Source: Escherichia coli
GTDB taxonomy: Bacteria; Pseudomonadota; Gammaproteobacteria; Enterobacterales; Enterobacteriaceae
Reading direction: 5' to 3' (one strand)
Assembly (NCBI RefSeq): GCF_003334815.1
Contig: NZ_QOWO01000028.1
DNA length: 53,280 nt
A program made the position numbers and the translations under genes. Of this stretch, positions 110 through 24,084 are shown piece after piece; within the stretch, counting starts at the first letter, position 1; the number at the start of each line of letters is the position of its first letter. The notes under the pieces were generated by a model. It ran no database searches, was not told the origin of the DNA, and saw nothing but the letters and a program-made list of their open reading frames with translations.

Positions 110-262
110 ATGCCGCAGAAATATAGATTACTTTCTTTAATAGTGATTTGTTTCACGCTTTTATTTTTCACCTGGATGATAAGAGATTCACTGTGTGAAT
201 TGCATATTAAACAGGAGAGTTATGAGCTGGCGGCGTTTTTAGCCTGCAAATTGAAAGAGTAA
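110..262 (+). CDS. hokA: Hok-family type I toxin HokA (50 aa)
   Basis: Translation MPQKYRLLSLIVICFTLLFFTWMIRDSLCELHIKQESYELAAFLACKLKE is a typical Hok/Gef peptide. AGGAGG Shine-Dalgarno lies just upstream of the ATG. The track ORF 68-262 is an in-frame GTG extension. Confidence 0.85.
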   Translation: MPQKYRLLSLIVICFTLLFFTWMIRDSLCELHIKQESYELAAFLACKLKE

Positions 263-392: not shown

Positions 393-424
393 TAAAAAAA
401 TCCCCGCCAAATGGCAGGGATCTT
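393..424 (-). terminator. Intrinsic terminator downstream of cspA
   Basis: Minus-strand GC-rich hairpin (ATCCCTGCC...GGCGGGGAT) followed by a run of T, directly 3' of the cspA stop. Confidence 0.6.
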
Positions 425-448
425 AGATTCTGTGCTTTTAAGCAGAGA

Positions 449-661
449 TTACAGGCTGGTTACGTTACCAGCTGCCGGGCCTTTAGCGCCGCTTTCGATG
501 GTGAAGGACACTTTCTGACCTTCGTCCAGAGATTTGTAACCATCGTTCTGGATAGCAGAGAAGTGTACGAACACATCTTTAGAGCCATCGTCAGGAGTGA
601 TGAAGCCGAAGCCTTTGTCAGCGTTGAACCATTTTACGATACCAGTCATTTTACCGGACAT
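449..661 (-). CDS. cspA: Major cold shock protein CspA (70 aa)
   Basis: Translation [70 protein letters not shown] contains the RNP1/RNP2 cold-shock-domain motifs (KGFGFI, VFVHF). Confidence 0.97.
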
Positions 662-820
662 AGTGTATTACCTTTAATAATTAAGTGTGCCTTTCGGCGA
701 TATGGCGTGCTTTACAGATTTTGAAGCGTTAAAGGAATGTGCACTACGAGGGGTATCAACGATAACTCTTGAAGGGACTTGCCTTACTACACTGCTTTAA
801 TGGTCTGTACGTCAAACCGT
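662..820 (-). promoter_or_regulatory. cspA long 5' UTR (cold-responsive leader, about 159 nt)
   Basis: Established knowledge that cspA mRNA has a roughly 159-nt leader acting as an RNA thermosensor; coordinates are inferred from the ATG position, with an AT-rich promoter/UP region beyond it. TSS not determined from sequence. Confidence 0.5.
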
Positions 821-941
821 TGATGTGCATTAAGCCACGCATTGGCGGGTGATGCAACAATTATTTTTCATATTTATGATTAATCGGTTGGAAAACGGTC
901 CTGTCATCAGGACCGTAAACAGCAATAAAGTGGATAAAAGT

Positions 942-12017: not shown

Positions 12018-12094
<77 letters not shown>

Positions 12095-12102
12095 AATTCG
12101 AA

Positions 12103-12131
12103 AAGCCTGCTCAACGAGCAGGCTTTTTTGC
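12103..12131 (+). terminator. Intrinsic terminator after proK
   Basis: AAGCCTGCTC-AACG-AGCAGGCTT hairpin followed by TTTTTT. Confidence 0.7.
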
Positions 12132-12184
12132 ATCTGCAGCTCATGAGGATGAGAACCTCCGGGGGCAGGGAGGTTCGACTCGAC

Positions 12185-12270
12185 GTAGGCCTGATAAGAC
12201 GCGTCAGCGTCGCATCAGGCAAATGTGCCGGCCATTGTCGGATGCGGCGCGACCGCCTTATTCGACCTAC
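12185..12270. repeat. REP/BIME palindromic units
   Basis: GTAGGCCTGATAAGACGCGTCAGCGTCGCATCAGGC and a second degenerate GCCGGATGCGGCG...CCTAC unit, typical of E. coli REP elements. Confidence 0.55.
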
Positions 12271-14480: not shown

Positions 14481-14580
14481 TGCCTGATGCGCTCCGCTTA
14501 TCAGGCCTACGAAAATTCTGCAATGTATTGAATTTGCACGATTTTGTAGGCCGGATAAGGCGTTAACGCCGCATCCGGCA
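14481..14580. repeat. REP/BIME cluster in the dppA-dppB intergenic region
   Basis: TGCCTGATGCGCTCCGCTTATCAGGCCTAC and GTAGGCCGGATAAGGCGTTAACGCCGCATCCGGCA in inverted orientation. Confidence 0.7.
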
Positions 14581-18682: not shown

Positions 18683-18711
18683 CAAAACCGGGGCCATGCG
18701 CTCCGGTTTAC
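18683..18711 (-). terminator. Hairpin at the convergent dppF/yhjV junction (probable yhjV terminator)
   Basis: AACCGG...CCGGTT inverted repeat with T-rich tract on the minus strand; overlaps the yhjV stop codon. Confidence 0.45.
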
Positions 18712-19979
18712 TCAATCAGCTTCAACAGTGGCGACAAGCATAGCAAAATGCCGTACAGCAGAATCAGCCAGGCTTTAAATCCGCGAAGTTTTTCCAGTTG
18801 TGCGACTTTATAGATCAGGAAAAACGGAATGAGGCACGACACAATACCATATAACGGGCTTCCCAACTGAAAGAACACCAGCACCGATACACGAAACGAA
18901 ACCCAAATCGTCAACGTAATGACGATAAAAGCGCAGATCGCCAGAGTCAGCACGCGTGAGTTAATTTTCTTGGTATCAATAATTCGGCTTAACAGATTGA
19001 GAATAATGCCTTTAATGGCCTCGTGGAAACCGAGATAAATGCCAAAGAATGCGGTCAGTACGGCAAAGATATTAAGCACCGTAGAGGTGATATGAATGAT
19101 ATGCCCAGGGATCACCTGCGCGGCCAGCGCCAGTGCTGAGATATTTTGTTCAAAGGCAGAAACGGCTTCTTCGTGGCTAATTGAGAAGGTAAACGAAAAG
19201 GCAAAAAACAGGATCACCGCGATGAGCGTGATATAACTAATTCGGTGGGTACGCAGCGCGAGCCGGGTTGCCAGTACTTTATCCGCTTCCCGTTTACGAT
19301 AGGCAATATTCATTGGGTTAAGTACCTGAATAAATACTGCAGAAAAGAAGCAAAATGGAATGGTAAGCAAGACATCGCGGAAAAAGACGGAGGCTTGCGG
19401 GAAGGCGGTTATATTGGCGAAATTCCAGTGCGGGATCATCGCAAAACCGAACACGACAATAATCCCTACTTTGACCACCACCATTGGCCCGGAAATCTTA
19501 AACAGTAATCGTTCACCACCAGACGCAATCGCCACCAGTACGGCGAAAATAGCGACTTTATAAAGTAGAGATTGTGAAAGATCGGCATCGGTTAAACCGA
19601 AGGTTTTCAGGTACGAGGCGCTGTCGAAAACCACGGAGAGAGAGTAGATAAAAATCCCGTGGATAATCATCAAAAAGTAGATAACCCCGAGGAAAATTCC
19701 CCAGTTCTTCCCCAGGTAATGACTGATAATATCGGTGTAGTCATTACAGGAATCGCTTTCAGAAAGGGTTTTTAAATAAATGTCCTGCACTACCCAGGTG
19801 GCAGGATAAGCAATGATCGCTGCGGTAATAAATACCCAAATTCCCTTCAAGCCAATTTGTACTGGCATCAGCACGGTTCCGGCACCAATCGCCATGCCTA
19901 TGCATAATAAAACCCAGCCGAAGTCGTAGCGTGTAAACGGCAATTTCTGATTGTGTTTCGATAGTGTGTTGTGCTGCAT
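18708..19979 (-). CDS. yhjV: HAAAP-family (serine/threonine-type) transporter YhjV (423 aa)
   Basis: Polytopic membrane protein; start trimmed to [22 protein letters not shown]. Confidence 0.85.
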
Positions 19980-20337
19980 AAAGTCCTGTCCAGAAAGAAG
20001 TCGGCCTCGCAAAAATGAATAAACCCAGTTTCTCTTGCGCAACAGGTGGAGAAGTCGAATACGCAGTATGTAAAAAATGAGGCAACAGATTCACTGGGGA
20101 GGTCGCGAGGAGGCGCAATTCTACAAAATTGCGCATTTCACTACCAGTCTGGAGTCAGCCCGGATATGAACTGCAACTATTGCAAATAAAGAAATTAAGC
20201 TGGAAGGCATCGCGCAATGAGGAAGATTGCCGGGTGCTGACAGTAAAAAGCAATCGTAGAATCAGCGGCAAGCCGGAAAGGTTCCGGTGAGGCGCAATGT
20301 TGCGGGGGCTTTATCCCTGGTGGCATTGGTTGCTGGA

Positions 20338-20405
20338 GAGAGAAAACCCCCGCACGTTGCAGGTATGCACCTGACAACACCACGGGGGCTAATCTTGACT
20401 CTAGA
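20338..20405 (-). ncRNA. rdlD: Antisense sRNA RdlD (antitoxin of the ldrD type I toxin-antitoxin pair); coordinates approximate
   Basis: Established ldr/rdl arrangement places an roughly 60-nt antisense RNA upstream of and opposite to ldr. The minus strand here carries a CCCCCG...CGGGGG hairpin followed by a T-tract ending near 20338. Confidence 0.4.
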
Positions 20406-20454
20406 CCACTCAAGAATAGCCGCGAAACGTTGTCATTACAACACAGGCGGCTAT

Positions 20455-20562
20455 ATGACGTTCGCAGAGCTGGGCATGGCCTTCTGGCATGATTTAGCGG
20501 CTCCGGTCATTGCTGGCATTCTTGCCAGTATGATCGTGAACTGGCTGAACAAGCGGAAGTAA
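20455..20562 (+). CDS. ldrD: Type I toxin LdrD (35 aa)
   Basis: Translation MTFAELGMAFWHDLAAPVIAGILASMIVNWLNKRK matches the Ldr toxin family. Confidence 0.85.
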   Translation: MTFAELGMAFWHDLAAPVIAGILASMIVNWLNKRK

Positions 20563-20611
20563 CGTGTCATGCGGGCGTCAGGCTGCCGTAATGGCAATTT
20601 GCGCCCGGACC

Positions 20612-20645
20612 AGGCCGCAGGGGGGAAACTCTGCGGCCTTTTTCG
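20612..20645 (+). terminator. Intrinsic terminator after ldrD
   Basis: AGGCCGCAG-GGGGGAAACT-CTGCGGCCT hairpin followed by TTTT. Confidence 0.55.
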
Positions 20646-20648
20646 TTC

Positions 20649-22328
20649 TTACTGCGGGTAAGGCACCCAGTCGCCGCCGTTCAGGCGAACGTACGGTTTA
20701 TCCTGGTATTGAATAACTACTGCATTTGAGTTCTCGGAGACCGGTGCTGTTTGTGGCAACCCACTGGTGAGTTTTTTCCAGTCAACATTGTCTTCGGTGA
20801 AAATCTTGCCATCGAGAACGCGAACCACCAGATCGGAGATAGCCAGGAAGCTGCTCGGTTGTTCGATGACAATCGGTGCCCCCTGATGCGGTGCCTTCAT
20901 GCCGAAGAATTTCACCCCAACGGGGACGTCGGTGATAGACGGGCTAGGGATATCACGTAGGCCAGATACCTGCATTCTGTCGCCCTTCAGCGCGCCGCCG
21001 TGTTCCGGCACCACGACCACCATCACTTTACGACCCGATTTCTCAAGTTCAGTAAAGAAGGCGTCCAGTTCATCAAAGAATTTCTGCGCCCGCGCTTTGT
21101 AATCCGCTGTTTTGCTGACCCCCGGATAATGGTTGCCGTCATGCAGTGGAAGCGTGTTGTAGAACGTGGCACTACGGCTGTTTTTATCTTTTTCGGTAAC
21201 GTCCAGCCAGCGGTTAAGCACAGCGGTATCGTCATAAACCGGCGAACCATCAAAGCCCAGCAAAATAACCGGCAGATTTGTTTGATCCATCAATTCGCTC
21301 TGCATGCCGCCATTTTCGCGAACTTCTTTCAAAAAACCGCCGAACTGGCCGTTATGTCCCATCATCAGGTGCTGGGTAAAGCCCAGTTTCGAAAGGTTAT
21401 CAAACAGATAGCAGTCGTTATTTGCCGGTTGATACAGATTAGTGTGCGAAGTCTGCCCGCAGCTGGCGCGCAGTAAACGGATCGCCGCCGGGCCACTGTA
21501 GGAGGTGGCGGAGTTAAAGTTCTTGAACTCAATATCGAAATGCGACCACAGTGGATGCGACATCAACCCGGCGGCTTCTATATCCGACCAGGAAAGCGAA
21601 CAGATGTTAATCACCAGTAGTTCAAATGGCTGAGCATCAGCGGGCAGCGAAGACGGGAAGGTCGATTTACGTTTCGCCTCCGCGTTATAGAAATTATTCA
21701 GCCAGGCGTTAAGGTTCGCCGTTGTTGGCGGTGCAGTTTGTGCGGGCATATCACCCACTACCGGTGCGCCACCCGTCGCCGCAACGGTTGCCGCTGCGTT
21801 ACCACCCGTCGTTGTTACAGTGGTCGTCGGTTGTCCGGCTGGCCACAAGGAGAAACTTGGTCCCGCCAGGGTAAGTACGTTCAGCCATAGCAGTATGGCA
21901 ACCACAAAAACGGTAATGCGAATCCATTGTGACAGGAATAACCAGGCCACTAATAAAACAAAAATGGCCCCAATCATCTGCCAGTTAATAAAGCGTGTGA
22001 CAAGGTCGATTAAATAATCGGTACTGAACCCCGCCACCTGCGAACCCTGGCTCATTATGCTTTCCGGGCCAGGCAACCAGGTGTCATGCCAGAACAAAGC
22101 AAAGCCGATCGGCAGGGCAATCCAGTGGCGCAAGCGATGCAGGCTGTAGCGCGGAAGGGGCATCAGCAGAAACGCGGCAAACACCAAATTGAGGAGCGGA
22201 TGGAAGTTAAGATATCCCGCCCACAACAGGCCGAACTTAACCAGAAAATAGAAGTTCCAGCCGGAAAGGCCGCGCCAGTATTGCCAGAGGGAAGAAGGCA
22301 TGGCGGTATTTTGCGTAAATTGAGTCAT
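20649..22328 (-). CDS. bcsG: Cellulose phosphoethanolamine transferase BcsG (559 aa)
   Basis: N-terminal TM region, Thr/Ala/Gly-rich linker, C-terminal alkaline-phosphatase-like domain; last gene of bcsEFG. Confidence 0.92.
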
Positions 22329-22516
22329 TTTTTGGTTGCCCTGGCTTTTTCCGTGCGGCGTAACGTCCCGGCCGGTTTAACATAACGAGGTTTAGCAAAG
22401 AACAAACGTAAGGTGTCGCGAATGCGTCGCAAAGAGTGCCGCGCCAGATAGCCCAGCGGGAAAAATATCAGTGCGCAAACGACAATAATTTCAATGATAT
22501 CGCTGATGGTCATCAT
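22325..22516 (-). CDS. bcsF: Small membrane protein BcsF (63 aa)
   Basis: Single-TM 63-aa peptide with 4-bp overlaps to both bcsE and bcsG. Confidence 0.85.
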
Positions 22517-24084
22517 GATGAGCGCTCCACAGCATCATCTAACAGTCGCATGGGTTCTGGTATTCGTCGCCAGTGGCGACCATCGTGCTCGGCATTGATG
22601 ACCGGTTTAGAACTTTGCGTTAAAGGCAGCGGCATGCCCCATTGTTCTGGGGCAAGCAAGCGCATCTGCACCAGCTCGGCACTGATTTGATCATCTTCAA
22701 ACCAGACCATACGGTTTGAGAAAATGTCGCCAGTAGGCAATGGGAAAATATGATTCAACGCGGTATCCAGATCGTTAATCCGACAGAATGAGAGAAACAG
22801 CACCAGCCGATTACCGCCAATGGTCATGATATCGCCGGTACGGTTAGGGCGACACAGCGTCAGGGCTTGTTCAACGCGGATACCCGGTACCGGACGTAGG
22901 GCAACCAGAACGCCTTTACCGTGGGCAGGTAATAGAGGGTTATTCATCATGTTGTTGACGGCATTACAGAACACATCCCACTTCTGGAAACCACGCAGTT
23001 TGAGCGGCTGGGTCATTGACAGCAAGGTAGTGATATCTTCCGGCACATAGCGACTAAACTTCTGCCCTTGCACGCTTTCGATCATCGTCAGACAACGGGA
23101 GAGTGGCGCATTCCACGGAATAACCATATTTGCACCGCAGGCCAATAACAAACGTTCATCGGTGGCGCGCAGGCTAGCGGTATTTTCCCGCACGAGGATT
23201 TTCATCGCACTACCGCGCTGGCGACGCAGGGTATGAATGCTGCGGGCCAGTGGCTCGATTTGCGCATTTTGCTGTAAAGAAAAGACCACCGTCGCCGCCT
23301 GAGCGGTACGGGCTTCATTGAACAGGACTTCGTTATTGTTGAACAGTTGCCAGTGTTCCGATAGCGGCGGCGCACCTTCCAGTACAGCAACATTACTCAG
23401 AATGCGTTTTTCGTCGCTGCGTGGTTGGATCTCCGCCTCTTCGCTTTGAACTAATGTCCAGATACCATTTTGTTGCTGAACGCTAAGCTGCTGACGGGCG
23501 CTGACCCCTTTTTCGTTGCACCAGAAGGCAATATCCAGCAAATGTTGGTCACCCTGAAAACGCAAACTGGCAAGACCAAAAAGTGAACGGTATTCCTCAA
23601 GCAACAATGAAAATTGTTTATCGTTATTATTTCCGGGATTAATTACCAAAAGCGAACAATGGTTTAACCTGCTCCATTTATTCATTTTATCCAACCATGA
23701 GCGAAGCCGCTCGGCAGGAATGTTTTGCCATGCGTTATTTGCGCAAACAAGAATAAAAAGGTAATTATGGGGATCAATAGAACACTGCAAATCACGGGTC
23801 AAATAGTATAGACCTTTTTCATGATTTAGCATTGAAAATAATTTTATTTTTTCCGGCCCTTGAGAATCATCTAATTGAAAGATTTTCGCCGGATCGCTGT
23901 CCATGCTAATGACCGCGACGTGTGCGGTTTCAGCCTGGGATGCAATTGTTTGATTCGCCAGACTGATAGCATCTTCATGGCGATCGACGTTAAACCACCA
24001 GACGCCGCCTGCTGGCATATGTCGCAGCTCATCCCATAATGATGAGATACCGATAGAGAATACAGGGTCCACAATGTCCCTCAT
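22513..24084 (-). CDS. bcsE: Cellulose biosynthesis protein BcsE (c-di-GMP-binding GIL-domain protein, 523 aa)
   Basis: 523-aa ORF divergent from bcsR; matches recalled BcsE. Confidence 0.92.

What the first reader, a model, noticed from the sequence alone, without database searches (positions are those of the whole stretch)
20250..20645. ldrD/rdlD type I toxin-antitoxin pair between yhjV and bcsG
A 35-codon Ldr toxin ORF is followed by a strong terminator. About 50-120 bp upstream on the opposite strand is a hairpin plus T-tract suitable for the 3' end of the RdlD antisense RNA. This is a known K-12 locus whose presence varies among E. coli lineages; the RNA boundaries given are approximate.
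Basis: partly seen in the sequence, partly recalled or inferred. Interest (0 to 1): 0.35.

Follow-up and report, generated by a model that had tools for sequence, protein, structure and literature searches.

The report
Known ldrD/rdlD type I toxin-antitoxin locus

Summary
The finding is correct and already known. Window 19800-21000 is 100% identical to E. coli K-12 MG1655. ldrD (35 aa; Pfam Ldr_toxin; identical to PDB 5LBJ) lies at 20455-20562 (+). rdlD lies at 20341-20406 (-) (Rfam RF01813, 87 bits, full length; RefSeq b4454 = 20343-20406). A rho-independent terminator lies at 20612-20644. The flanking genes are yhjV and bcsG.

One sub-claim is wrong. The locus is not variably present: 5394 of 5426 complete E. 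coli genomes have it, and an LDR next to bcsG is syntenic in six enterobacterial genera. What varies is tandem copy number (483-bp period; at least 2 copies in 61% of genomes; K-12 has one).

Beyond the finding, across 44 units the 5' UTR is better conserved than the toxin CDS. An upstream SD+AUG is conserved, but its reading frame is not. Covariation supports pairing of the ldrD start region with its own 3' UTR, and an mRNA hairpin whose loop faces RdlD's 5' tail. RdlD overlaps neither ribosome-binding site, and how it represses ldrD remains unresolved experimentally.

The parts
20246..20646 (.). LDR-D repeat unit (401 bp): the stretch shared by all tandem copies at this site in other strains. 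K-12 LDR-A/B/C match 20254-20646 at about 80%.
   Evidence: blastn of the window against the BL21, O103, SC455 and 02B17CRGN002 arrays and against K-12 ldrABC; alignment.
20257..20262 (+). Inferred ldrD -10 hexamer TAGAAT (TAGTAT in A/B/C, TAAAAT in some copies). No convincing -35.
   Evidence: T1, A2, A5 and T6 are invariant or nearly so in 44 units. It lies 7 nt upstream of the published TSS. It falls below the threshold of the generic scan. Inference.
20270..20646 (+). ldrD mRNA, about 377 nt, with a 185-nt 5' UTR, from the published TSS to the terminator U-tract.
   Evidence: TSS at NC_000913.3 3700272 in PMC7967276 Suppl. Table, mapped with the offset. The 3' end is inferred from the terminator. 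MFE -182.3 kcal/mol, z=-7.87.
20272..20288 (+). 5' hairpin of the ldrD mRNA. Its 3' arm overlaps the start of the upstream SD.
   Evidence: MFE. Compensatory changes, e.g. GCCGG/CCGGU against UCCCG/CGGGA in Kluyvera. It is poorly aligned, so only 63% of cells count as paired.
20286..20292 (+). SD-like GGUGAGG, 4 nt upstream of the upstream AUG.
   Evidence: Read from the sequence. The segment 20286-20299 is 97.7% conserved in 44 units.
20297..20374 (+). Upstream ORF of 25 codons in K-12 (MLRGLYPWWHWLLERENPRTLQVCT). The start is conserved but the frame is not. It is possibly the 'ldrX' of the literature; identity not confirmed.
   Evidence: the ORF listing. AUG is kept in 41 of 44 units, but length ranges from 11 to 88 codons with frameshifts. 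Third codon positions are the least variable: 0.029 against 0.255 in ldrD.
20341..20406 (-). rdlD antisense RNA (antitoxin), 64-66 nt: a 16-nt single-stranded 5' tail, a long hairpin and UUUUCU.
   Evidence: Rfam RF01813, 87 bits, model positions 1-66 of 66. RefSeq b4454 = 20343-20406. Fold. TSS 3700136 = window 20406. Northern blots and dsRNA capture (PMC7373196).
20413..20441 (-). Inferred rdlD promoter: -35 TTGTAA (20441-20436), 17-bp spacer, -10 TATTCT (20418-20413), then 6 nt to the TSS at 20406.
   Evidence: Read from the sequence and conserved in all E. coli copies. With 8 of 12 matches it falls below the scan threshold. Inference.
20393..20415 (+). Hairpin in the ldrD mRNA (stem 20393-98:20410-15). 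Its 11-nt loop (20399-20409) contains the complement of RdlD nt 1-8.
   Evidence: 4 of 6 stem pairs show compensatory change and 93% of cells are paired. The loop is the most variable part among paralogs. The loop is 0.92 unpaired in the full-length ensemble.
20445..20450 (+). Weak SD-like AGGCGG of ldrD, predicted to be sequestered in every construct folded.
   Evidence: Sequence. Unpaired probability is 0.18-0.33 with or without the RdlD site masked. It pairs either with 20417-23 (local, 96% of cells paired) or with 20581-87 (long-range, 91%).
20455..20562 (+). ldrD CDS, the 35-aa toxin.
   Evidence: Pfam PF13940, E=6.9e-27. PDB 5LBJ, 35 of 35 identical.
20563..20598 (+). 3' UTR segment predicted to pair with the ldrD start region (20429-20478).
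   Evidence: MFE helices. Cells paired are 77-97% against 35-45% when the partners are slid. Up to four pair types occur at one pair: GC 12, AU 10, GU 8, CG 5.
20599..20605 (+). 3' arm (UUGCGCC) of the predicted 5'-3' closing helix with 20291-20297 (GGCGCAA), which covers the end of the upstream SD and the A of its AUG.
   Evidence: MFE and RNAalifold consensus. Six of the seven pairs are kept in 43-44 of 44 units but are invariant, so there is no covariation test.
20612..20644 (+). Rho-independent terminator of ldrD.
   Evidence: covariation.
18708..19979 (-). yhjV (flank).
20649..22328 (-). bcsG (flank).
   Evidence: TIGR03368, 817 bits.

Best explanation
The region is LDR-D, the ldrD/rdlD type I toxin-antitoxin module of E. 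coli K-12.

Shown here or in the literature:
- A roughly 377-nt mRNA (TSS 20270, terminator 20612-20644) carries a 185-nt leader and the 35-aa membrane toxin LdrD (20455-20562).
- From the opposite strand, inside that leader, the 64-66-nt RdlD (20406 to 20341) is made.
- RdlD pairs with the leader in vivo, and the duplex is cut by RNase III.
- Overproduced LdrD is toxic, and co-expressed RdlD prevents the toxicity.

Inferred from comparative and folding analysis:
- The mRNA is intrinsically translation-inert. The weak ldrD SD and AUG are always base-paired, first to a local anti-SD (20417-23) and, once the 3' UTR is made, to 20570-87. The whole RNA is closed by a 5'-3' helix (20291-97 with 20599-605).
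- RdlD covers neither ribosome-binding site.
- Its single-stranded 5' tail probably nucleates on the loop of a covarying mRNA hairpin (20399-20409). That loop is hypervariable among paralogs and so could give each Rdl specificity for its own ldr.
- Full duplex formation then probably acts indirectly. It may trigger RNase III cleavage, and it may refold the extreme 5' end so that the conserved upstream start (SD 20286-92, AUG 20297) becomes inaccessible, removing ribosome entry that would otherwise open the leader.

The last step is the least certain.
For: Identity:
- 100% identity to MG1655 across 19800-21000 and across a 5-kb block.
- RefSeq and PGAP annotate ldrD and rdlD here.
- Pfam PF13940, PDB 5LBJ and Rfam RF01813.

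Transcripts and duplex:
- Transcription start sites come from PMC7967276 Suppl..
- PMC7373196 reports a p19-captured dsRNA peak of about 21 nt within the overlap, Northern blots for both RNAs, and modest stabilisation in an rnc mutant.
- Toxicity and rescue by RdlD are summarised in PMC4147584 and PMC8309996.

RNA-level constraint:
- The 5' UTR segment 20286-20340 is 95-98% conserved across six genera, against 81% for the CDS.

Structure:
- The full-length fold has z=-7.87.
- The long-range model has 90.1% of cells paired against 35-45% for slid controls, and a covariation score of 0.149 against at most 0.064. No shuffle out of 500 reaches it.
- The local alternative helices are also supported.

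Tail-loop contact:
- RdlD nt 1-16 are unpaired.
- The target loop is 0.92 unpaired.
- The stem of the target hairpin covaries in 4 of 6 pairs.
- The loop and tail are the most variable segment among paralogs.

Upstream start:
- SD plus AUG is kept in 41 of 44 units.
- Masking the RdlD target lowers the unpaired probability of the AUG from 0.56 to 0.08 in full-length RNA.
Against: - The mechanistic part is in silico only. A 2021 review states that the mechanism of RdlD is unknown (PMC8309996).
- The 5'-3' closing helix is invariant, so covariation cannot test it.
- The tested structure was derived from one member of the alignment, which inflates percent paired relative to the slid controls. The sequences are also related, which inflates the shuffle control. 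Both are caveats stated by the tool.
- Most supporting changes are one-sided (G-C to G-U, or A-U to G-U).
- The local and long-range helices are mutually exclusive, and the data do not say which one exists in cells.
- The upstream AUG is replaced by ACG or GCG in 3 of 44 units, and the ORF behind it has no fixed end.
- In rnc mutants ldrD and rdlD levels rise only slightly, so RNase III cleavage cannot be the whole story.
Confidence: 0.9

Rival explanations
1. Classical hok/sok-type coupling (the 'ldrX' model of Gerdes & Wagner and of Kawano). A leader ORF in the 5' UTR must be translated for ldrD to be translated, and RdlD represses by blocking translation of that leader ORF.
For: The model is proposed in the literature and repeated in reviews (PMC4147584; PMC8167048; PMC5416894; PMC8594479). 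A good SD plus AUG at 20286-20299 is conserved in 41 of 44 units. Most versions of the ORF run into the RdlD-complementary region. Masking the RdlD site lowers the predicted accessibility of the AUG from 0.56 to 0.08.
Against: The conserved upstream ORF ends at 20374 in K-12, 81 nt before the ldrD AUG, so it does not overlap the toxin's initiation region as mok overlaps hok. Its stop position varies from 20326 to 20562 and its length from 11 to 88 codons. RdlD starts pairing 42 nt downstream of the AUG and so does not cover that initiation region. The in-frame extension of ldrD (GTG 20287 or ATG 20365) is broken by stops in many copies. Reviews say the model is unconfirmed. I could not obtain the original coordinates of ldrX.
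Confidence: 0.35
2. RdlD acts mainly by targeting the ldrD mRNA for RNase III cleavage and decay, not by controlling translation.
For: A dsRNA of about 21 nt from the overlap is among the most abundant p19-captured species. Both RNAs are somewhat stabilised in an rnc mutant, and a short ldrD fragment appears only in that mutant (PMC7373196). The overlap is a perfect 64-66-bp duplex.
Against: The levels and half-lives of full-length ldrD and of rdlD were only 'slightly increased' in the rnc mutant. Cleavage in the leader would leave the CDS and its start region intact. Reviews classify Ldr/Rdl as 'inhibit protein synthesis'.
Confidence: 0.2
3. The ORF and hairpin are chance features of an intergenic repeat with no toxin-antitoxin function.
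For: No phenotype is known for deletion of Ldr/Fst-family chromosomal loci (PMC7472228). One array copy in O103 WL1467 is frameshifted.
Against: The 35-aa ORF is kept at a fixed distance (112-117 nt) from the Rdl terminator in six genera. It shows a coding-type substitution pattern, with the third codon position most variable. It matches the Pfam and Rfam models. Toxicity, antisense rescue and an NMR structure are published.
Confidence: 0.01

Closest known systems
LDR-D: ldrD (b4453) / rdlD (b4454) of E. coli K-12 MG1655
   Same: The same sequence, base for base, across at least window 19042-24042 (the L002 block), with the same flanking genes and the same annotation.
   Different: Nothing in the locus itself. 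Elsewhere the window differs from NC_000913.3 by 9 substitutions and a 168-bp length difference near 12076-12183.
LDR-A/B/C (ldrABC/rdlABC) between kdsA and chaA in K-12
   Same: The same unit architecture at about 80% DNA identity over 20254-20646. The 5' UTR core 20283-20359 and most of the 3' UTR are nearly identical. All are in Pfam Ldr_toxin.
   Different: The period is 535 bp rather than 483 bp. The toxin sequence diverges (LdrA is 57% identical to LdrD according to PMC8309996). The Rdl 5' tail and apical loop differ. An in-frame ATG 27 nt upstream of the ldr start is present only in A/B/C.
hok/sok of plasmid R1 and chromosomal hok loci (hokA lies at window 110-262)
   Same: A small membrane toxin; a long structured leader; an antisense RNA complementary to the leader rather than to the toxin's initiation region; a predicted 5'-3' closing helix and sequestered toxin SD; an antisense 5' tail facing a target loop.
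   Different: The toxin family is unrelated. The conserved upstream ORF does not overlap the ldrD start, and RdlD does not cover its initiation region. 3'-end processing has not been shown for ldrD.
Fst/RNAII (par of pAD1) and the Fst/Ldr superfamily
   Same: The toxin signature: a transmembrane helix with a PxxxG motif, a conserved Trp and a charged C-terminus (PMC2887945; PMC7472228). LdrD reads ...AAPVIAGIL...NWLNKRK.
   Different: In Fst systems the antisense RNA overlaps the 3' end of the toxin mRNA, whereas in Ldr/Rdl it lies opposite the 5' leader.
aapA1/IsoA1 of Helicobacter pylori
   Same: Control of the toxin by mRNA folding, with the SD sequestered by long-range pairing (PMC5416894).
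   Different: IsoA1 covers the toxin's initiation region directly and no leader ORF is invoked.

Membership tests
Ldr toxin family (Pfam PF13940) | Full-length match to the family profile | tested here: met
   PF13940, E=6.9e-27, residues 1-35 on model positions 1-35 of 35. Identical to PDB 5LBJ 'Small toxic polypeptide LdrD'.
Ldr toxin family (Pfam PF13940) | About 35 aa, one hydrophobic helix with PxxxG, a conserved Trp followed by basic residues | tested here: met
   MTFAELGMAFWHDLAAPVIAGILASMIVNWLNKRK. The signature is as defined in PMC2887945 and PMC7472228.
Ldr toxin family (Pfam PF13940) | Toxic when overproduced | not testable with these tools
   Reported for this exact protein by Kawano et al. 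2002, as summarised in PMC4147584 and PMC8309996.
RdlD antitoxin RNA (Rfam RF01813) | Covariance-model score above the gathering threshold over the full model | tested here: met
   87.0 bits against 50, model positions 1-66 of 66, window 20406 to 20341.
RdlD antitoxin RNA (Rfam RF01813) | Actually transcribed from the minus strand as a 60-66-nt RNA | not testable with these tools
   Literature only: TSS 3700136 = window 20406 (PMC7967276 Suppl.); Northern blot and dsRNA capture (PMC7373196).
Type I toxin-antitoxin system | Cis-encoded antisense RNA overlapping the toxin mRNA | tested here: met
   The ldrD mRNA spans 20270-20646 and fully contains RdlD at 20341-20406 on the other strand.
Type I toxin-antitoxin system | The antisense RNA prevents toxin synthesis | not testable with these tools
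   Reported for RdlD and LdrD.
LDR (long direct repeat) element | A 0.4-0.5-kb unit present in several direct copies, each with an ldr and an rdl gene | tested here: met
   The 401-bp unit is repeated with a 483-bp period in other strains, and three paralogs lie at kdsA-chaA.
hok/sok-type regulation | Leader ORF that overlaps the toxin's initiation region (translational coupling) | tested here: not met
   The only conserved upstream start (AUG 20297) opens an ORF that ends at 20374 in K-12, 81 nt before the ldrD AUG, and its end is not conserved. Caveat: the published coordinates of 'ldrX' could not be retrieved.
hok/sok-type regulation | Antisense RNA covers the leader ORF's ribosome-binding site | tested here: not met
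   RdlD complementarity begins at 20341, which is 42 nt downstream of AUG 20297.
hok/sok-type regulation | 5'-3' fold-back pairing that closes the full-length mRNA | tested here: inconclusive
   Predicted by the MFE and by RNAalifold (20291-97 with 20599-605). Both arms are invariant in 44 units, so covariation gives no test.
hok/sok-type regulation | Activation by 3'-end processing | not testable with these tools
   There is no sequence-level test. A shorter ldrD species is seen only in rnc mutants.
hok/sok-type regulation | Single-stranded 5' tail of the antisense RNA recognises a loop in the target | tested here: inconclusive
   In silico only: the tail is unpaired, the target loop is 0.92 unpaired, and the stem covaries in 4 of 6 pairs.

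The most novel reading that the evidence does not exclude
Within this textbook locus, the regulatory logic may differ from the hok/sok analogy usually quoted.

- The toxin's start site may be locked by its own 3' UTR. This is supported by covariation across six genera.
- The conserved upstream SD+AUG may be a ribosome-entry or structural element rather than a gene for a leader peptide.
- RdlD may act at a distance, with its hypervariable 5' tail and the matching target loop serving as the discriminator that keeps tandem and dispersed paralogs from cross-talking.

Related side lead: the same LDR RNA scaffold carries an unnamed 30-aa ORF that fails the Pfam Ldr model in Atlantibacter, Kluyvera and an uncultured enterobacterium. 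This suggests a regulatory cassette that outlives its toxin.
Probability: 0.35. Interest if true: 0.4.

Novelty: already known. Interest (0 to 1): 0.12.

Why it matters
As a finding it confirms an annotated, experimentally studied K-12 locus, so it adds nothing new.

The work here has modest further value:
- It corrects a common impression. The bcsG-adjacent LDR is a near-universal, deeply syntenic feature, and only its tandem copy number is polymorphic.
- The mechanism by which RdlD represses ldrD is still formally unknown. The comparative results give concrete, cheap experiments to test it. These results are a leader more conserved than the toxin, a conserved start without a conserved frame, covarying pairing between the ldrD start region and its 3' UTR, and a hypervariable tail/loop pair.

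Tried and rejected
1. NCBIfam returned no family for the 35-aa peptide, so Pfam and PDB were used instead. My first translation was off by one base.

2. The generic sigma-70 scan found no promoter. Both promoters were therefore read by hand against the published transcription start sites and remain inferences.

3. An N-terminally extended LdrD (91-aa ORF from GTG 20287, or from in-frame ATG 20365) was rejected. The frame is interrupted by stops in LDR-A/B/C and in many D-type copies.

4. The 25-codon upstream ORF as a conserved peptide gene was rejected. It shows frameshifts, a length of 11-88 codons, and third codon positions that are the least variable.

5. I proposed my own 'anti-anti-SD switch': UAGCC 20417-21 choosing between GGCUA in the RdlD target and the ldrD SD. 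Constrained folding does not support it. The accessibility of the ldrD SD/AUG is unchanged by masking the RdlD site (0.18 against 0.23 in full-length RNA; 0.33 against 0.33 in truncated forms).

6. In structure model A, I entered the mirror-image RdlD stem two columns out of register (helix 3, 50% paired). RNAalifold gives the correct register. The helix is invariant and uninformative either way.

7. Kawano 2012, Fozo 2008 and the primary 2002 paper are not in the library, so the published ldrX coordinates and the primary 5'/3' mapping could not be checked directly.

8. The assumption that the whole window equals NC_000913.3 was false.

9. The non-enterobacterial hits of the 19-nt pattern scan (Lachnospiraceae, Leptospira, Pleomorphomonas and others) have no Ldr-like ORF and were treated as chance matches.
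Full report
OBSERVATION

- A 35-codon ORF lies at 20455-20562 (+) and encodes MTFAELGMAFWHDLAAPVIAGILASMIVNWLNKRK.
- A G+C-rich hairpin follows, with its stem at 20612-20639 (11 pairs, 8 G-C), and then TTTTT.
- On the minus strand, 49-114 nt upstream of the ATG, a hairpin plus U-tract at 20341-20406 matches the Rfam rdlD model RF01813 end to end (87.0 bits against a gathering score of 50; E=4.3e-17). It folds far better than shuffles (-29.5 kcal/mol, z=-3.98).

IDENTITY

- Window 19800-21000 is 100% identical to E. coli K-12 MG1655, and a 5,001-bp block of NC_000913.3 around it is an exact substring of the window.
- PGAP and the curated RefSeq record place ldrD (WP_000141634.1; b4453) and rdlD (b4454) exactly here, between yhjV (18708-19979, -) and bcsG (20649-22328, -; TIGR03368, 817 bits).
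- The peptide matches Pfam Ldr_toxin PF13940 over its full length (E=6.9e-27). It is identical to the NMR structure 5LBJ, 'Small toxic polypeptide LdrD'.

The window as a whole is a very close relative of MG1655 rather than a copy of NC_000913.3. It has 9 substitutions and is 168 bp shorter near 12076-12183.

ANATOMY

- The repeat unit shared by tandem copies in other strains is 20246-20646 (401 bp). K-12's LDR-A/B/C align to 20254-20646 at about 80%.
- A published RNA-seq re-annotation gives the ldrD TSS at NC_000913.3 3,700,272, which is window 20270, and the rdlD TSS at 3,700,136, which is window 20406 (PMC7967276 Suppl.).
- The ldrD TSS sits 7 nt downstream of a conserved TAGAAT at 20257-20262. 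The mRNA is therefore about 377 nt with a 185-nt leader.
- The rdlD promoter reads TTGTAA, a 17-bp spacer, TATTCT, then 6 nt to the G at 20406. It is conserved in every E. coli copy. Both promoters fall below the generic scanner's threshold and remain inferences.

DISTRIBUTION

- All 5,426 complete E. coli genomes have an LDR match. 5,394 of them hold at least 80% of a 551-bp query, which can only be covered by a D-type unit plus flank.
- With a query anchored in both yhjV and bcsG, most genomes match from yhjV to exactly the end of the terminator (window 20646) and then break.
- The reason is a tandem array with a 483-bp period: two units in SC455, three in BL21 and 02B17CRGN002, and four (one frameshifted) in an O103 strain.
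- A query across the unit-spacer-unit junction is found in 3,302 of 5,426 genomes (61%). K-12's single copy is therefore the minority state.
- Total LDR places per genome range from 1 to 12, with a median of 4.

Beyond E. coli, I scanned one genome per species for the conserved RdlD 3' half. It returned LDR units with a 35-aa Ldr ORF 112-117 nt downstream in Escherichia, Citrobacter, Salmonella enterica subsp. arizonae and diarizonae, the Klebsiella oxytoca group, Kluyvera and Pseudocitrobacter. In most of these loci the unit lies next to the 3' end of bcsG, with yhjV on the other side where the contig reaches it. The kdsA-chaA site is shared by Escherichia and Pseudocitrobacter. This fits the vertical-inheritance picture of Fozo et al. 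2010 (PMC2887945).

WHAT IS CONSERVED

In 44 units less than 97% identical to each other (alignment A1):
- The best-conserved part outside the search pattern is the leader segment 20286-20340, at 95-98% column identity. The toxin CDS is at 81%.
- The CDS shows the expected coding signature, with variability by codon position of 0.21, 0.10 and 0.26.
- The 25-codon upstream ORF (20297-20374; SD-like GGUGAGG 4 nt upstream) shows the opposite pattern: 0.09, 0.06 and 0.03.
- Its AUG is kept in 41 of 44 units. The frame behind it is not: it runs 11-88 codons, has internal frameshifts, and its stops fall anywhere from 20326 to the ldr stop.

Selection therefore acts on the RNA and perhaps on the act of initiation, not on a peptide.

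The in-frame extension of ldrD is broken by stops in many copies.

Within the RdlD-complementary region the variable positions cluster in two places. These are RdlD's apical loop and its first ~10 nucleotides.

STRUCTURE

The full-length mRNA is predicted to be exceptionally stable: -182.3 kcal/mol against -137.9 +/- 5.6 for shuffles, z=-7.87. In that fold:
- GGCGCAA (20291-97, overlapping the upstream SD and AUG) pairs with UUGCGCC (20599-605);
- the ldrD SD and start region (20446-66) pairs with the 3' UTR (20570-87).

Counted on the 44 units, this long-range model has 90.1% of cells paired, against 35-45% when the partners are slid. Its covariation score is 0.149 against at most 0.064, and no shuffle out of 500 reaches it. 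Individual pairs in the helices joining the start of ldrD to the 3' UTR show up to four pair types.

Two caveats apply. The closing 5'-3' helix is invariant and therefore untested. The tool also warns that relatedness among the sequences, and deriving the structure from one member of the alignment, both inflate these controls.

Mutually exclusive local helices are supported as well:
- a local anti-SD (20417-23 with 20447-53, 96% paired);
- an inner hairpin (C-G to U-A in 12 units);
- a hairpin at 20393-98 with 20410-15, with 4 of 6 pairs compensatory, whose 11-nt loop contains the complement of RdlD's single-stranded 5' end.

MECHANISM

Shown in the literature:
- LdrD overproduction is toxic and RdlD co-expression prevents it.
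- Both RNAs are detected on Northern blots. A dsRNA of about 21 nt from the overlap is abundant in p19 pull-downs. RNase III loss only slightly stabilises both RNAs (PMC7373196).

Inferred here:
- ldrD mRNA is intrinsically inert because its weak SD and AUG are paired in every construct I folded. The SD unpaired probability is 0.18-0.33, with or without the RdlD site masked.
- RdlD overlaps neither ribosome-binding site.
- The tail/loop pair is the probable nucleation site and, being hypervariable, a plausible paralog discriminator.
- The only predicted consequence of masking the RdlD target is a drop in accessibility of the upstream AUG, from 0.56 to 0.08, in the full-length RNA.
- The loop facing RdlD's tail is exposed only in the full-length fold (0.92 against about 0.15 in nascent forms).

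This is compatible with a modified leader-start model. It does not fit a literal hok/mok/sok scheme, because the conserved upstream ORF does not overlap the ldrD start and RdlD does not cover the ORF's initiation region.

An alternative idea of mine, an anti-anti-SD switch, was not supported by constrained folding.

COMPARISON AND VERDICT

This is a member of the Ldr/Rdl family. More precisely, it is the founding, experimentally characterised member, LDR-D of K-12. Every sequence-testable membership criterion is met.
- It resembles hok/sok in layout but fails two of that system's defining regulatory features.
- Its toxin belongs to the Fst/Ldr superfamily, whose Gram-positive members place the antisense RNA at the other end of the mRNA.

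Novelty: already known. Interest: low. The residual value lies in the corrected population picture and in testable predictions for a mechanism that remains formally open.

SIDE OBSERVATIONS

- In Atlantibacter, in additional Kluyvera copies and in an uncultured enterobacterium, the LDR leader (73-77% identical to K-12 LDR-D), the Rdl hairpin, the start context and the 3' UTR (62-71%) are retained. The CDS region is only 40-44% identical and encodes an unnamed 30-aa hydrophobic peptide. That peptide has no Pfam match and no BLASTP alignment to LdrD.
- Pluralibacter and 'Enterobacteriaceae bacterium 89' share only the Rdl-like hairpin, next to a 46-48-aa ORF.

Noticed in passing
window 20246-20646; L004:2947-4313, L005:3947-5312, L006:4447-6297, L007:3947-4829: The yhjV-bcsG site holds a tandem array of LDR units (483-bp period, 82-bp spacer) in most E. 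coli. There are 2-4 copies in the strains examined, and the unit-spacer-unit junction is present in 3302 of 5426 complete genomes. K-12's single copy is the minority state. One copy in O103 WL1467 is frameshifted.
   Followed up: yes
L042:6172-6590 (+), L046 (site 3535, +), L047 (site 8660, -), L031, L032, L067, L057 (site 719, +): The LDR leader, Rdl hairpin, start context (GGCGGTTATATGACG) and 3' UTR/terminator are conserved, but the ORF encodes an unnamed 30-aa peptide (e.g. MTFKQAFWLAVLTSIIGPIVVALIRYFFSF). It has no Pfam hit, no BLASTP alignment to LdrD, and only 'hypothetical protein' names. It is either an extremely diverged Ldr (it shares MTF..AFW) or a replaced toxin in a conserved regulatory scaffold.
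   Followed up: partly
L014 (sites 521 and 66, -), L062 (site 252, -): Pluralibacter gergoviae and 'Enterobacteriaceae bacterium 89' share only the Rdl-like hairpin segment (leader about 52% identical). It lies next to a 46-48-aa ORF beginning MDFLKAV..., which has no Pfam match. This may be a further relative of the Ldr/Rdl layout.
   Followed up: partly
window 12076-12183 and scattered single bases (e.g. 36604): The window is not base-identical to NC_000913.3. It has 9 substitutions, and it has one copy of a roughly 108-bp segment just downstream of tRNA-Pro (proK) where MG1655 has two copies 168 bp apart. The source is therefore a very close K-12 relative or variant rather than the reference itself.
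   Followed up: partly
window 110-262 (+): A second type I toxin gene, hokA (50 aa, MPQKYRLLSLIVICFTLLFFTWMIRDSLCELHIKQESYELAAFLACKLKE), lies at the start of the window. It sits just beside the cspA thermoregulator/mRNA (Rfam RF01766 at 394-821, minus strand).
   Followed up: partly
L007:766-2392: E. coli SC455 (soil isolate) carries an HTH plus split HipA-family type II toxin-antitoxin module inserted between dppF and yhjV, immediately beside the LDR array.
   Followed up: no
NZ_CP195449.1:122139-122501 (hit H70) and 26 other plasmid places: Ldr-family units also occur on E. coli plasmids (about 81% identical to LDR-D over the unit core), although the family is usually described as chromosomal and vertically inherited.
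   Followed up: no
window 12018-12091 (+), 12188-12267 (-), 14503-14545 (-): Other Rfam gathering-score hits in the window are tRNA-Pro (proK), naRNA4/CssrE (a REP-type element) and ES036/CssrF.
   Followed up: no
window 20329-20336 with 20494-20501: RNAalifold's consensus pairs the leader segment GUUGCUGG with the ldrD codons for L-A-A (UUAGCGGC). All variation at the synonymous sites keeps the pairs as G-U or A-U, except for 4 cells. This is a possible additional leader-CDS contact that competes with the local hairpin 20317-24:20329-36.
   Followed up: no
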